Shown one piece after another: positions 1-4,633 of a stretch of DNA of 4,633 bases (position 1 is its first letter; every line of letters begins with the position of its first letter). The notes beneath the pieces were generated by a model. The model did not search any database, was not told the DNA's origin, and saw only the letters and a program-made list of their open reading frames with translations. Location of the stretch: the IMG/VR virus record IMGVR_UViG_2667527914_000002; one strand, given 5' to 3'. The position numbers and the translations under genes were made by a program. The DNA is from a virus (Duplodnaviria > Heunggongvirae > Uroviricota > Caudoviricetes).

Positions 1-82
1 CGAGGTAATCCCCCAGAGAAGTCAGTGGGTTACGCAGAGAATCGTAACGGGATACCAGATCAAGAGCCTGTCCAATGTGCAT
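1..82 (-). CDS. insG: IS4 transposase, N-terminal 27 codons only (rest of gene lies beyond window start)
   Basis: ATG at 82-80 (minus) followed by MHIGQALDLVSRYDSLRNPLTSLGDYL, open to the window edge. This matches my recollection of the E. coli IS4 transposase InsG N-terminus. Absent from the ORF track because it is truncated by the window. Confidence 0.75.
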   Translation of the reverse strand, partial: MHIGQALDLVSRYDSLRNPLTSLGDYL

Positions 83-116
83 AAAAAAATCCGGAAACAA
101 GTGAGCGTTTCCGGAT
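83..116 (-). terminator. Intrinsic-terminator-like hairpin plus T-tract inside the IS4 end, immediately upstream of the transposase ATG
   Basis: Perfect 10-bp stem (plus-strand 89-98 atccggaaac and 107-116 gtttccggat) with an 8-nt loop. On the minus strand it is followed by TTTTTTT (89-83) and then the transposase ATG at 82. Confidence 0.5.
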
Positions 117-148
117 TCTTACACAGCCACTGGATCGGTCAACTGATC

Positions 149-166
149 CTTAACTGATCGGCATTA
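149..166. repeat. IS4 terminal inverted repeat (outer end at 166)
   Basis: 18 bp TAATGCCGATCAGTTAAG on the minus strand at the element boundary. Three GATC sites cluster at 133-136, 145-148 and 156-159 in and next to the repeat. Confidence 0.65.
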
Positions 167-1306
167 CACCACCGGGACGCGGATTCATATCTTCCAGGTC
201 GCGGCAGTCATTGGAAGAGTAAATTCCCCAGTTGATCCCGGTGGCGTAGGCTTCAAAACGGGACTTCATATCCCCGCGCAGTAACGCCCCGGCGTTAAAT
301 TTGGCGTAATAAACGCCCTGCTTACTTTTTCGTACCAGTCCGGTGTTGATCCGCTGTTCGATGCGGGTCAGATACGGCACCAGTGAATAGTTGATAAATC
401 CCAGCCCCAGCTCTTCGATATTGTTGAAGGTGGCGCGATCGGTGTTCTGCACCATGTGCAACGGCACCCGGAACAGACGACAGATTTCTTCCAGCTGAAA
501 CTTGCGGGTTTCCAGGAACTGACTGTCCTCGGCGTTCAGCGCCATCGACTTCCAGTCCAGCCCCATTTCCAGAATCATCGGGCGGTGAGCATTGCCAAGC
601 CCCGTGTGACACTCCTCAAAATCTTTCTTCAGACGCTCGTAAGCATCCGGCGTGAGCTTTTGTTCCGTACGCAACACACCGGATGTCACCGCACCATTAC
701 TAAACAACCTGGCACCGTGCTCCTCGGTTGCCGCTGCCAGTGAAATGGCCTCACGCGCATACGCAATGGGATTCAGCCCGACAAGTCCATCCAGCGTCAG
801 GGTGCGCACATGCCAGATTTCATTCTGGGTCAACACATCCACGGAACCATCCGGAAACGTCACCTGATAAACCGGCTGCCACTGGCTGTTCAGCTTCGGT
901 TCCACACAGCCCGGATCTATCGGAAGAAGCTCCACCACTTCTCCCAGTGCCTTTACCTTGTAGGCGTAAAAATTCCCCCGTAGACACAGGCAGACAATAA
1001 CCAGCTCCCAGAATTCCTGCGGTGTCATGTAGCCATTAGGTTTTGCCGAAACCAACTTATGCAGTCGTTCATCCACCGCCCGTGTTTTCAGGGTACCGCT
1101 GATTTTGTAGAGACTGCAGGGCAGCATACCAACAGACTCTGCCAGCACCCTGACGCAAGAATAGACCGCCGTCAGGCGCATGGCCCGCTGGCTACTGATC
1201 CGCTTTCCGGTATAGGTGTCGTATGACAGCCCGATAGCATCAGCAGTTCTGCTGGCGTGGTCACCGGCACATCGCTTTTTCGTTGAAATAATCCCGAAAA
1301 GAACAC
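150..1306 (-). pseudogene. Phage portal protein, HK97 family; apparently disrupted by an N-terminal frameshift and by IS4 insertion at the 3' end
   Basis: The 415-aa ORF (150..1397) contains portal-like conserved segments (RLTAVYSCVRVLAESVGMLP near the N-terminus, NDCRDLEDMNPRPGG near the C-terminus). Its frame has no credible start after the upstream ORF's stop. A GTG at 1306-1304 with GGAGGT 5 nt upstream opens a different frame encoding a portal-like N-terminus ([22 protein letters not shown]...) that stops at 1172. The last 5 codons (VMPIS) and stop at 150-152 are encoded by IS4 sequence. Confidence 0.75.
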
Positions 1307-1488
1307 TATTTACCTCCGCCGACAGACTGCCGTGTACGGTCGAGATATCGCGCCACCAGCCACGACCAGAACAGGCACAGCGCCCCGGCAACAACAAAAC
1401 CCGCCGGGGGATAAATCAGCCAGGCACCATACGCCAGCAAAAGCGCACCCAGCACGCCCACCAGAGGCGCGAGAATCAGCATGATCAT
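1306..1488 (-). CDS. Hypothetical small membrane protein (60 aa, two predicted transmembrane helices)
   Basis: ATG at 1488-1486 with GAGGT 5 nt upstream, starting 11 nt after the TerL stop. Its stop TAG (1308-1306) overlaps the portal GTG start (TAGTG). Sequence [60 protein letters not shown] has two hydrophobic stretches and a basic C-terminal tail. No homolog recognised. Confidence 0.55.
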
Positions 1489-1499
1489 AATTACCTCAG

Positions 1500-3233
1500 T
1501 TAAAGCGAGCGGATCCCGTAGGACTCAATGTGGTCAGACAGCGTGTCTTCTTTCTCGTACAGCATGGCTCTGCCAACCGCCATAATCAGCGCAACTGCAC
1601 CATCGATTTTGTTTTCCGCCTGCTCTTTGACGGGTTTCACCACATCATCGTTACCCGGCATGTTTTTGCCGACCACGTTGCCGATACACCAGGTCATGAT
1701 GGGATTGCCGTCATGATGAAAACGTCCCGATTCAATCGCTGCTTCCAGCTCTTTCATCGGATCGGACATATTGGTGAAGTTCTGGACGATAGTGACGGGA
1801 TTCAGGTCTTCATCAGCAAGGTCATGTGACAACCCGGTCGCCCCGAAGGGGTCGATGGGTGACTCACTGACCGGGCTGATTTTGTTCGCCGCTTTGGCCT
1901 CCTCGAGGATGTAGCGATAATCCACCTCCGCACCATCGGTAACGGTCAGAACGCCCATTTCCACCCATTTCTGAAAGCGTTCGGCTGTCCGTCGATCTTC
2001 ATTTTTCTCGACGCTGTACACCGTGTCATACGGTACCCAGAAACGCGGGGCCACACTGTAGTAATGCGTTTTACCGTCAATCTCGCGGGTATAAAGTCGC
2101 GCCATGCTGTTCATATCCAGCTTACGCGCCAGGTCAAAGGCCAGAATGCACGGCTGCCCCTCGAACTGCTCAAGGGTCAGTGATTTATCCTCGCAGCTCT
2201 GCCAGCTCACCAAGTTGAAATACGCCGAACGCGCCGACACCCAGATATTGAGGTGTTTTGTTTTAAAGACGTTTGCCAGACGGGCGTTATTTTTCGCACG
2301 CTGCTGCTGACTTAACAAAAATTCGCGATAAACCGACACGCCAATATTTGGATTGGCTTTTTCCAGCACCTGCGGGCCGGTCCAGTCGTCACCTTCATCA
2401 ACGGTATAGATGATCCCGAACAGTTCATCGTTAGGCACCGAGCCGTTGAGCATCTCGATGACTTCCCGCCGCTTGTCGTAGCACGGCCCCTCAATGTTGT
2501 ACCCGGCGGTGGTGATGGCCCACATCAGTGGCTGACGTCGCGCCCCCATCCCGGTAAGCATTGTGGTATAAAGCGCATCGGTGGCATGCTCGTGATATTC
2601 ATCAACCACGGCACAGTGGGGTGATGAACCATCACCTGGGTTGCCGATCAGCGGTTCAAACCGCGCGCCATCCTCCGGACGGTTCATGTTTGAGGCGTTA
2701 ACCTCAATCCCGAACGCTTCCGTCAGCATGGGTGTGCGTTTACACATCAGTCGCGCCGGGCGAAAGACTTCCCACGCCTGTTTCTCTGTCGTGGCACCGG
2801 AATACACTTCCGCGCCAAACTCGTTATCACAGGCAAAACAATACAGGGCAACACCGGCAGAGATTGCTGATTTGCCGTTCTTACGGGGGATTTCGGTGTA
2901 CACCTCCCGGAAGCGGCGCAACCGGGTGCCTTTATTGACCCAGCCAAACGCACAGCAGATCACAAATAGCTGCCACGGCTCCAGCGTGATGGGCATCCGT
3001 TTGAATGCCCACTCCCCCTTGGTGTGCGGCAACAGCTGAATAAATTTCGCGGCCCGTTCAGCCAGGTCCTTGTCGAAGCGGTAACGAAACGACTTACTTT
3101 TTTCCGCCATCAGGTCATCAAGATGGCGCTGGCAGGCCTGAATCACAAACTGGCAGGCAACAATCTTTCCGCGCACGACATCCCGGGCATACTGATTTGC
3201 AGCATTTACGTTGGGGTAAGATTTCCGGCTCAT
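1500..3233 (-). CDS. terL: Phage terminase large subunit (577 aa)
   Basis: ATG at 3233, TAA at 1502-1500. N-terminal ATPase domain with a Walker A-like P-loop (IPRKNGKS) and Walker B (CAVVDEYHE). C-terminal nuclease domain with acidic motifs ([22 protein letters not shown]). Size and motif order fit terminase large subunits. Confidence 0.92.
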
Positions 3234-3724
3234 GATTCGATAATTTTCAGAAACGGGTTAGTGGCTTTCTTCTGCCCCGCCAGGCCAATCAGACGCTGGC
3301 GGCTGCTGGGGTCGAGTCCGAGCATTGCCCCCGTGCTGCTCATCTCGGACTCCTGTTCTTTTTTGGCGGTCAGCTCCGGATTTTTGACCCTGCCGCCCAT
3401 TGCACCGGTGATGGTGTTGCCCTGTATGGCAATATTTTTCACGGCACGTCGCCAGAACTCATAGGCCACGCACCACCGCTCAAGTACCGCCAGGTCAGTC
3501 ACGCACAGCAGGCCCTGACCGCAGAGTTCTTTGGTTGTCAGTTGCCACATGATCGTGGCGAGAGGGAGATCTTCTTCAGCGAACCACTCTGGTGGCTCAA
3601 CACCTTTGATGGGCGTAAAAACAGGTTCATCTTTGTTCAGGGCTCGCTTGCCGGGGTTTCCGGCCAGCGCCTTGCGCGCCGTTGGCTTGGGGCGACGCCC
3701 GGAACGCCCCGCCGTTCCAGCCAT
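3230..3724 (-). CDS. terS: Phage terminase small subunit, P27 family (164 aa from ATG 3724; alternative GTG start at 3733)
   Basis: N-terminus [34 protein letters not shown] matches the P27-family TerS signature as I recall it. AGGAG lies 8 nt upstream of the ATG at 3724. Stop TGA (3232-3230) overlaps the TerL ATG (ATGA). Confidence 0.85.
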
Positions 3725-3763
3725 ATGCGGCACTCCTGGTTAAATTTCATTTTTCGCGGGTAT

Positions 3764-3823
3764 AAAAAAACGATGGGGCGGGCAGTCCGGAAGACGTCAG
3801 GTCACAGGGATTTGCCCCGCCCC
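3764..3823. other. Candidate cos / packaging-recognition region: GC-rich imperfect inverted repeat with adjacent A/T run
   Basis: Arms ggggcgggca (3775-3784) and tgccccgcccc (3813-3823) flank a 28-nt spacer containing the palindromes tccgga and gacgtc. A7 run at 3764-3770. It sits in the HNH-terS intergenic region (3725-3845), where cos lies in HNH-containing HK97-like phages. Confidence 0.35.
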
Positions 3824-3845: not shown

Positions 3846-4196
3846 TCACCGGATTCGTTCGCGCGCTGTTTTCGCTTTATGGCAGGGCCAGCACAGACTC
3901 TGCAGGTTGCTGTCTGCGTCTGTTCCGCCATGCGCTTTCGGGATGATGTGGTCGACGGTTTTCGCCTCGCTCACCACACCGACACGCAGACACAACTGAC
4001 ACAGACCTTTATCGCGCTTCAGAATACGGGCACGAATCACCGTCCATTTTGAGCCATAGCCACGCTGGTGGCGGCTCAGTCCGCGCTGGTGCTGCACCCA
4101 GCCTTCACCGCGATGTTTATCGCAGTAACCCGAACTGTCTGTGGTTGTACCTGCACATCCACGCTTACGGCAGGCACGTGGGATTAGTGATGGCAT
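3846..4196 (-). CDS. HNH endonuclease, phage packaging-associated (116 aa)
   Basis: ATG at 4196 with GAGGT 4 nt upstream. Cys-rich N-terminus (CRKRGCAG...GYCDKH), HNH-type motif VDHIIPKAHGG, then N...CWPCH. Position immediately upstream of terS is typical for cos-phage HNH proteins. Confidence 0.88.
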   Translation of the reverse strand: MPSLIPRACRKRGCAGTTTDSSGYCDKHRGEGWVQHQRGLSRHQRGYGSKWTVIRARILKRDKGLCQLCLRVGVVSEAKTVDHIIPKAHGGTDADSNLQSLCWPCHKAKTARERIR

Positions 4197-4238: not shown

Positions 4239-4633
4239 CTACTTAATGCACTGAGTGCGGATATACTCCTGTGCCCCTTCCAGTTGCATCTGCATCGTCA
4301 TCAGCCGCTCTCTGAGGGTGAAATAATCCCGTTCAGCGGTGTCTGCCAGTCGGGGGCTGGTTGCATTATCCACGCCGGAGGCGGTGGTGGCTTCACGCAC
4401 TGACTGACAGACTGCTTTGATGTGCAACCGACGACGACCAGCGGCAACATCAGCGCGCAGAGTTTCATTTTCAGCTTTCGCATCAGCTAACTCCTTCGTG
4501 TATTTAGCATCGAGTGCATTAACATCACGCTGTCTCTGCTGCATGTCAGTAATGGTTGCGTTCGCCAGCTTCAGTTCTCTTGCGTTTTTGTCGCGCTGCT
4601 CTTTGTAGGTAATGGCGTTATCACGGTAATGAT
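4239..4633 (-). CDS. Rz: Rz i-spanin (inner-membrane spanin subunit), 5'-partial; start lies beyond the window end
   Basis: Frame is open to the window edge. Translation [110 protein letters not shown]... is near-identical to phage lambda Rz as I recall it. Stop TAG at 4241-4239. Confidence 0.93.
4301..4483 (-). CDS. Rz1: Rz1 o-spanin (outer-membrane lipoprotein spanin subunit), embedded out of frame within Rz
   Basis: ATG at 4483 with AGGAG 7 nt upstream. [60 protein letters not shown] has a lipobox (VVGC, Cys20) and a proline-rich mature part, near-identical to lambda Rz1. Wholly inside Rz in a different frame. Confidence 0.93.

What the first reader, a model, noticed from the sequence alone, without database searches (positions are those of the whole stretch)
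1172..1306. Portal N-terminus is in a different reading frame from the conserved body
The only credible portal start is GTG 1306 (GGAGGT, 5-nt spacer), overlapping the upstream ORF's stop. That frame encodes a portal-like N-terminus (FFSGLFQRKSDVPVTTPAELL) but hits TGA at 1174-1172. The conserved body (ISSQRAMRLTAVYSCVRVLAESV onward) is in the adjacent frame, which has no ATG/GTG/TTG start after 1306. The geometry fits a single-base deletion (or -1 shift) somewhere around 1180-1245. I see no slippery heptamer, so a mutation or assembly error is more likely than programmed frameshifting. With the IS4 insertion this would be a second independent lesion in the same gene.
Basis: seen in the sequence. 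Interest (0 to 1): 0.55.

Follow-up and report, generated by a model that had tools for sequence, protein, structure and literature searches.

The report
Frameshifted, IS4-truncated prophage portal pseudogene
A phage portal gene in a decayed Shigella sonnei prophage has lost one G near its start, so its first 21 codons and its body are in different reading frames; this is ordinary gene decay, fixed in the species, not a sequencing error or a recoding signal.

Summary
The window matches the Shigella sonnei Ss046 chromosome (CP000038.1) exactly. It covers the late region of a lambdoid prophage with a phiP27/HK97-type packaging module, all on the minus strand: Rz/Rz1, HNH, TerS, TerL, a 60-aa YmfR-like protein, then the portal gene, cut off by IS4. 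The portal starts at GTG 1306-1304, as in annotated intact homologues. One G of a GG pair is missing at window 1245/1244. It is the only indel in 1140 aligned bases against six intact homologues. Frame A therefore runs 23 out-of-frame codons to TGA 1174-1172, and the conserved body (1244-167) sits in the adjacent frame. Restoring the G gives one 380-aa reading frame, 97.1% identical to the phage phiP27 portal, with strong HK97-portal profile matches. The same allele is in all 20 S. sonnei loci fetched. The fragment that exists only with both lesions is on record in 1695 blocks of the assembly collection. Assembly-type indels nearby are sporadic and lie in homopolymers. There is no slippery heptamer, the C-terminus is removed by IS4, and no head genes follow. 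Verdict: a real, fixed 1-bp deletion in an already dead gene. Ordinary and of low interest.

The parts
1312..1317 (-). Shine-Dalgarno-like GGAGGT, 5 nt upstream of the portal GTG start
   Evidence: Read directly from the sequence. The same motif is invariant in five aligned sequences.
1304..1306 (-). Portal start codon GTG, overlapping by one base the TAG stop of the upstream ymfR-like ORF
   Evidence: This is the annotated start of the portal CDS in E. coli A36, STEC276, ATCC 11775 and IGC, and in phages phiP27 and SfIV. The translations begin [10 protein letters not shown].
1245..1306 (-). Portal N-terminal segment in the original frame (codons 1-20 plus the first two bases of codon 21): MFFSGLFQRKSDVPVTTPAEL
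   Evidence: 20/21 residues are identical to the intact A36 portal. The N-terminus is conserved across Enterobacterales portals.
1244..1245 (-). Frameshift site: one G of an ancestral GG is missing (window GAACT|GCTGATG; homologues GAGCTGGCGGAG/GAT)
   Evidence: Alignment A1 and the full-gene alignment. It is the only indel in 1140 nt against six intact homologues. All 58 sampled E. coli records that span the site have one more base than the window.
1172..1243 (-). Out-of-frame tail of the start-codon frame (LMLSGCHTTPIPESGSVASGPCA) ending at TGA 1174-1172
   Evidence: It has no similarity to any portal. The 44-aa product has no Pfam match and is not on record as a called gene.
167..1244 (-). 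Conserved portal body in the adjacent frame (ADAIGLSYDTYTGKRISSQRAMRL ... DMNPRPGG), equivalent to residues 22-380 of a roughly 413-aa portal
   Evidence: The repaired 380-aa protein matches PF04860 (E 2.5e-107) and TIGR01537 portal_HK97 (E 2.4e-78). It is 97.1% identical to the phiP27 portal over residues 1-380.
1179..1181 (-). Internal ATG used by gene callers to call a 343-aa portal fragment (150-1181) that ends at a stop inside IS4
   Evidence: The exact fragment is on record in 1695 blocks of the collection.
1..166 (-). End of IS4 (terminal TAATGCCGATCAGTTAAGG...; transposase ATG at 82-80 reading leftwards out of the window). It truncates the portal after residue 380.
   Evidence: Portal homology ends at 167. 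The element is annotated 'IS4-like element IS4 family transposase' in E. coli RefSeq records. The product carries Pfam Nterm_IS4 and DDE_Tnp_1.
1306..1488 (-). Upstream 60-aa hydrophobic ORF (YmfR-like / phiP27 L37 'membrane protein'), intact
   Evidence: It has no Pfam or NCBIfam match.
1500..3233 (-). Terminase large subunit, 577 aa, intact
   Evidence: Pfam TerL_ATPase and TerL_nuclease on the product. The exact protein is listed in 4305 blocks of the collection.

Best explanation
The portal gene of a defective lambdoid prophage in Shigella sonnei is a pseudogene with two independent lesions in the gene. This prophage has a phiP27/SfIV/HK97-type head-packaging module.

Lesion 1 is a genuine one-base deletion (GG to G at window 1245/1244, codon 21/22). 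Ribosomes starting at the authentic GTG (1306) move out of frame and terminate at TGA 1174-1172 after 44 codons.

Lesion 2 is an IS4 element abutting codon 380, which removes the last 33 or so residues. In addition, the rest of the gene and the whole downstream head and tail module are absent from this locus.

Shown: the deletion, its position, its uniqueness among indels, and its presence in every S. sonnei assembly examined; the IS4 junction; and the absence of downstream head genes within 4.6 kb.

Inferred: the lesions arose by neutral decay after the prophage lost selective value and were fixed in the ancestor of the sampled S. sonnei. The order of the two lesions cannot be determined from these data. 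No functional portal is made.
For: - **Source.** The window matches CP000038.1 and three other chromosomes exactly. CP000038.1 is S. sonnei Ss046 (PMC5447701).
- **Deletion.** Against four intact E. coli prophage portals and phages phiP27 and SfIV, there is a single gap at window 1245/1244 and no other indel over 1140 nt.
- **E. coli sampling.** All 58 evenly sampled E. coli records that span the site have exactly one extra base. The other 2 of the 60 sampled do not span it.
- **Repair.** Inserting one G yields a continuous 380-aa ORF: PF04860 E 2.5e-107, TIGR01537 portal_HK97 E 2.4e-78, and 97.1% identity to phiP27 L38 over residues 1-380.
- **Homologues.** Portals from E. coli to Morganella and Edwardsiella start MFF..F and run continuously through the junction.
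- **Fixation.** The identical 181-nt sequence across the site is present in 20/20 S. sonnei loci. The 343-aa fragment, which depends on both lesions, is on record in 1695 blocks.
- **Control.** In the same assemblies, indels that differ between assemblies sit in A6 and G5 runs of TerS and TerL and are sporadic. The portal deletion is invariant and not in a run.
- **Downstream.** No portal 3' end, protease or capsid DNA lies within 4.6 kb beyond IS4.
- **Context.** IS4 has expanded in Shigella. In S. sonnei, 12% of interrupted genes carry both an IS and another inactivating mutation (PMC7373316).
Against: - No read-level data were available, so support rests on agreement among independent assemblies rather than pileups.
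- No near-identical (>99%) intact copy of this exact prophage was found. The ancestral state is therefore inferred from homologues that are 87-93% identical at the DNA level. A scan of species-representative genomes for either allele with identical flanks found nothing.
- Lineage assignments of the 20 loci were not checked, so 'fixed in the species' strictly means 'in all assemblies sampled'.
Confidence: 0.94

Rival explanations
1. Sequencing or assembly error: the genome really has GG and the gene is in one frame up to the IS4 junction.
For: Single-base indels are a common assembly artefact. Some S. sonnei assemblies do show sporadic indels in nearby TerS and TerL.
Against: The same deletion is in 20/20 loci, from 18 distinct assemblies including Ss046 and short draft contigs. 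The dependent 343-aa gene call occurs in 1695 blocks. The site is a GG pair, not a homopolymer run, whereas the assembly-specific indels are in A6 and G5 runs and differ between assemblies.
Confidence: 0.02
2. Programmed -1 ribosomal frameshifting or transcriptional slippage joins the two frames to make a full N-terminus plus body.
For: A -1 shift at the CTG codon would restore the correct frame (read from the sequence).
Against: There is no X XXY YYZ heptamer anywhere in 1306-1160, and no homopolymer at the site. All homologues, including functional phages phiP27, SfIV, SfI, SfII and ST64B, encode the portal in one frame. The product would still lack its C-terminus, and no capsid genes remain nearby.
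Confidence: 0.01
3. The body frame is the real gene and uses another start. Candidates are the TTG at 1397 (the 414-aa call in CP000038.1) or the internal ATG 1181 (343 aa). On this reading the GTG-1306 peptide is incidental.
For: Both calls exist in public annotations (L011 7840-9084, 414 aa; L006 8053-9084, 343 aa). The body frame is open from 1397.
Against: The TTG-1397 extension overlaps the conserved ymfR-like ORF in another frame and has no similarity to any portal N-terminus. Every homologue starts at the GTG with MFFSGLFQRK. The ATG-1181 product lacks 43 conserved N-terminal residues and ends in IS4-derived codons VMPIS.
Confidence: 0.03

Closest known systems
Portal protein L38 of Stx2e phage phiP27 (NC_003356.1), with the portals of Shigella phages SfIV, SfI and SfII and Salmonella phage ST64B
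   Same: The gene order is the same: HNH, cos, TerS, TerL, a 60-aa membrane protein, then the portal, whose GTG start overlaps the upstream stop. The repaired window protein is 97.1% identical in amino acids to phiP27 and about 91% to SfIV, SfI, SfII and ST64B, over residues 1-380.
   Different: Those portals are single-frame, about 413 aa, and are followed by prohead protease and capsid genes. The window copy has a 1-bp deletion at codon 21/22, is cut by IS4 after residue 380, and has no head genes downstream.
HK97-family phage portal proteins (NCBIfam TIGR01537; Pfam PF04860)
   Different: As encoded, the sequence is split between two frames and lacks its C-terminus, so it is a pseudogene of the family rather than a functional member.
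The decayed TerL'-ymfR-portal' module of the e14 element of E. coli K-12 (here strain DH1, NC_017625.1)
   Same: It has the same module (terminase large subunit, ymfR, portal) in a defective prophage, and the portal is annotated as a pseudogene.
   Different: In e14 the portal retains the normal frame at the site (one more base than the window). It is truncated by deletion after about 136 codons and fused to a baseplate gene remnant. There is no IS4 and no early frameshift.
IS-driven and mutational pseudogenisation in Shigella (Hawkey et al. 2020, PMC7373316)
   Same: IS4 is one of five IS expanded in all Shigella. Every reference genome has at least 199 pseudogenes. In S. sonnei 12% of interrupted genes carry both an IS and another inactivating mutation. 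This gene fits that class.
   Different: None in kind. This is one specific instance, in a prophage gene rather than a core metabolic gene.

Membership tests
HK97-family phage portal protein (TIGR01537 / PF04860) | Full-length match to the family profile above the curated cut-off | tested here: met
   The repaired 380-aa sequence scores PF04860 359 bits (cut-off 39.1) over profile positions 2-321 of 321, and TIGR01537 263.7 bits (cut-off 112) over profile positions 3-343 of 343.
HK97-family phage portal protein (TIGR01537 / PF04860) | A single intact ORF encoding the whole protein (functional member) | tested here: not met
   There is a 1-bp deletion at 1245/1244 and IS4 truncation at 167/166. 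The start-codon frame stops after 44 codons.
HK97-family phage portal protein (TIGR01537 / PF04860) | Genomic context: downstream of terminase, upstream of prohead protease and major capsid genes | tested here: inconclusive
   The upstream half is met (TerS, TerL and ymfR-like ORF). The downstream protease and capsid are absent within 4.6 kb, consistent with a remnant.
Programmed -1 ribosomal frameshift site | Slippery heptamer X XXY YYZ at the frame junction | tested here: not met
   There is no such heptamer in any frame between 1306 and 1160.
Programmed -1 ribosomal frameshift site | The two-frame arrangement is conserved in homologues | tested here: not met
   All examined homologues are single-frame: six aligned in full, all 58 sampled E. 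coli records that span the site, and 11 full-length proteins spanning Enterobacterales.
Programmed -1 ribosomal frameshift site | A trans-frame protein product is detected | not testable with these tools
   This needs proteomics or a reporter assay.
IS4 insertion sequence | IS4 terminal sequence and IS4-family DDE transposase adjacent to the break in homology | tested here: met
   Portal homology ends at 167. The downstream DNA matches elements annotated 'IS4-like element IS4 family transposase' at about 98.5-98.8% identity. The product has Nterm_IS4 and DDE_Tnp_1 domains.
IS4 insertion sequence | Target-site duplication flanking a simple insertion | tested here: not met
   The other IS4 end is not followed by portal sequence. 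It is cut by an IS3-family element next to bamE, or followed by raiA-pheL-pheA in other strains. The junction therefore reflects insertion followed by IS-mediated deletion or rearrangement, not a simple insertion.
Sequencing/assembly artefact | The indel varies between independent assemblies and sits in a homopolymer | tested here: not met
   It is invariant in 20/20 loci and lies in a GG pair. True assembly-variable indels nearby are in A6 and G5 runs.

The most novel reading that the evidence does not exclude
The N-terminally and C-terminally truncated 343-aa portal fragment (ATG 1181 to a stop inside IS4) is expressed. It is kept in all S. sonnei because it interferes with portal-ring assembly of superinfecting phiP27/SfIV-like phages, acting as a dominant-negative exclusion factor. 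On this reading the frameshift is not merely neutral decay.
Probability: 0.02. Interest if true: 0.4.

Novelty: already known. Interest (0 to 1): 0.05.

Why it matters
It matters little biologically. It is one more doubly inactivated prophage gene in a species known for IS expansion and pseudogene accumulation (PMC7373316).

Its practical value is for annotation. The 414-aa portal call in CP000038.1 (from TTG at window 1397) and the 343-aa call in other assemblies are artefacts of a frameshifted, truncated pseudogene. The invariant deletion, together with the IS4 junction, is also a stable marker of this S. sonnei prophage remnant.

Tried and rejected
- **Exact-pattern scan.** I scanned the species-representative genome collection for either allele (G or GG) with identical flanks and found 0 hits. 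This says nothing about an intact ancestor.
- **Look-up of the 44-aa frame-A product.** It is not on record as a called gene.
- **Search of 5,426 complete E. coli genomes for a near-identical intact copy.** The best match is only 95.6% identical over 521 nt, so the exact ancestral prophage was not recovered. The large protein search returned only 90%-identity cluster representatives: the best intact one is 94% identical, and the 100% hit is the S. sonnei fragment itself.
- **Programmed frameshifting.** Rejected: no slippery heptamer and no conservation of the two-frame arrangement.
- **Assembly error.** Rejected: 20/20 loci agree, and the homopolymer-indel control behaves differently.
- **Alternative starts TTG 1397 and ATG 1181.** Rejected as authentic starts by comparison with the N-termini of homologues.
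- **Not attempted.** Structure prediction and fold search were not run because the sequence evidence is decisive.

Full report
**What is in the window**

All long ORFs lie on the minus strand:
- Rz with embedded Rz1 (4239-4544 and beyond)
- an HNH endonuclease (3846-4196)
- a P27-type small terminase (3230-3733)
- a 577-aa large terminase (1500-3233)
- a 60-aa hydrophobic YmfR-like ORF (1306-1488)
- a portal gene (1306 down to 167)
- the end of an IS4 element (166-1)

The reverse complement of the whole window matches four complete chromosomes exactly, including CP000038.1. That record is Shigella sonnei Ss046 (PMC5447701). Upstream in those chromosomes lie DnaB, RusA, antiterminator Q, holin and lysozyme genes. 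The region is therefore the late part of a lambdoid prophage.

**Checking the observation**

GTG 1306-1304 is preceded by GGAGGT (1317-1312) and a 5-nt spacer, and overlaps the TAG stop of the ymfR-like ORF. This frame reads [21 protein letters not shown], then LMLSGCHTTPIPESGSVASGPCA, and stops at TGA 1174-1172.

The adjacent frame holds ADAIGLSYDTYTGKRISSQRAMRLTAVYSCVRVLAESV... through to ...DMNPRPGG. It has no ATG/GTG/TTG between the TTG cluster at 1397-1389 and ATG 1181-1179. The description is accurate except on one point. There is an in-frame ATG at 1181, just inside the conserved body, and gene callers use it to call a 343-aa fragment.

**Locating the lesion**

- A 521-nt query across the region matched 1384 of 5426 complete E. 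coli genomes. The listed full-length matches each span 522 nt in the record.
- Four of these loci were fetched. In each, the RefSeq annotation starts a 413-aa 'phage portal protein' at the equivalent GTG, directly after ymfR. The translations begin [35 protein letters not shown].
- The DNA alignment shows one gap. The window has GAACT-GCTGATGCT where homologues have GAGCTGGCGGAGGCT, or GAGCTGGCGGATGCC in one of them. One G of a GG pair is missing between window 1245 and 1244.
- A full-gene alignment against these four plus phages phiP27 and SfIV shows this is the only indel in 1140 aligned bases. DNA identities are 87-93%.
- In an evenly spaced sample of 60 of 1386 matching E. coli records, all 58 that span the site have exactly one more base than the window.

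**Repairing the gene in silico**

Inserting the G gives a continuous 380-aa reading frame. It matches Pfam PF04860 (E 2.5e-107, whole profile) and NCBIfam TIGR01537 portal_HK97 (E 2.4e-78, whole profile). It is 97.1% identical over residues 1-380 to the portal L38 of Stx2e phage phiP27, and about 91% identical to the portals of SfIV, SfI, SfII and ST64B.

In phiP27 and SfIV the portal CDS also starts at the corresponding position. phiP27 has the same gene order: HNH, cos, TerS, TerL, a 60-aa membrane protein, then the portal. Portals from Plesiomonas, Kluyvera, Pantoea, Pectobacterium, Yersinia, Edwardsiella and Morganella all begin MFF..F and run continuously through the junction region. The frame-A N-terminus and the frame-B body are therefore two parts of one ancestral ORF.

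**Mutation or artefact?**

Twenty S. sonnei loci were retrieved through the exact TerL protein and the exact 343-aa fragment. They come from 18 distinct assemblies, both complete chromosomes and short draft contigs. All contain the identical 181-nt sequence across the site.

The 343-aa product can only be called when both the frameshift and the IS4 junction are present. It is on record in 1695 blocks of the assembly collection, and the TerL is on record in 4305.

As a control, I compared the first 3 kb of the loci fetched (HNH 3' end, TerS, TerL and ymfR), comparing five of them with L017. Three assemblies carry extra indels, but these differ from assembly to assembly. Most sit in A6 or G5 runs, which is the signature of assembly error. 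The portal deletion is invariant and is not in a homopolymer. It is a real mutation, fixed in all sampled S. sonnei.

**Programmed recoding?**

A -1 shift at the CTG codon would restore the frame. However, there is no X XXY YYZ heptamer between 1306 and 1160, and no homologue has the two-frame arrangement. A shifted product would also still be defective, for the reason given next.

**The second lesion and its context**

Portal homology ends at window 167. From 166 leftwards the sequence is TAATGCCGATCAGTTAAGG..., with a transposase ATG at 82-80. The element matches 'IS4-like element IS4 family transposase' annotations at about 98.5-98.8% identity, and its product has Nterm_IS4 and DDE_Tnp_1 domains. 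This removes the last 33 or so portal residues.

No portal 3' end, prohead protease or capsid DNA is present within 4.6 kb beyond the junction in any of the eight loci compared (L005-L012). In Ss046-type chromosomes the IS4 is itself cut by an IS3-family element next to bamE and recN. In others the IS4 is complete and abuts raiA-pheL-pheA. The locus has therefore undergone insertion followed by IS-mediated deletion or rearrangement. The prophage cannot make heads.

**Interpretation**

This is a prophage pseudogene with two independent lesions in the gene, plus loss of the downstream morphogenesis module. It fits the documented pattern in Shigella: IS4 is one of five expanded IS, every reference genome has at least 199 pseudogenes, and 12% of interrupted S. 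sonnei genes carry both an IS and another inactivating mutation (PMC7373316). E. coli K-12 derivatives carry a differently decayed copy of the same TerL'-ymfR-portal' module in e14.

The order of the two lesions is unknown, because no copy with only one of them was found.

**Verdict**

Interest is low.

Noticed in passing
window 1181-1397 (L011 7840-9084): The gene table returned for CP000038.1 calls a 414-aa 'portal' from the TTG at window 1397, in the body frame. Its first 51 or so codons overlap the ymfR-like ORF and resemble no portal. Other assemblies call a 343-aa fragment from ATG 1181. Both calls are annotation artefacts of the frameshift.
   Followed up: yes
L011 about 10190-11430, versus L008, L009 and L022 downstream of IS4: The IS4 that truncates the portal is itself interrupted by an IS3-family element next to bamE/recN in Ss046-type chromosomes. 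In other S. sonnei chromosomes the IS4 is complete (442-aa transposase) and is followed by raiA-pheL-pheA-tyrA. This is an IS-associated structural polymorphism among strains.
   Followed up: partly
L020, L024 and L026, positions about 818, 1048, 1079, 1164 and 1546 (TerS/TerL; window about 3360-2640): Some S. sonnei assemblies have extra 1-2-base indels, mostly in A6 and G5 runs of TerS and TerL, that split those genes. They differ between assemblies and look like assembly errors. They served as a useful contrast to the invariant portal deletion.
   Followed up: partly
window about 3770-3790 (minus strand, between HNH and TerS): The sequence CTGCCCGCCCC lies at the position where phiP27 has its annotated cos site CGCCCGCCCC (9 of 10 bases match). 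It is a likely cos remnant of this prophage.
   Followed up: partly
window 4301-4483, inside 4239-4544: A 60-aa ORF with a lipoprotein-like signal ([20 protein letters not shown]) is embedded in another frame of the Rz-like gene (Pfam Phage_lysis on the product in related loci). This is the classic Rz/Rz1 arrangement.
   Followed up: no
L027 (E. coli DH1, e14 element) 1192-3713: The K-12 e14 element carries the same TerL-ymfR-portal module, decayed differently. TerL lacks its N-terminus, and the portal is truncated after about 136 codons and abuts a baseplate J remnant.
   Followed up: partly
P0002; P0003/P0005/P0007; P0006/P0008/P0009: There are odd portal relatives in public assemblies. One is a 439-aa protein with an internal 26-residue tandem duplication (alignment A2, columns 71-96). 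Others are 622-aa portal plus prohead-protease fusions, and 646-aa proteins that combine tail-sheath domains with a portal. They may be gene-call or assembly chimeras.
   Followed up: no
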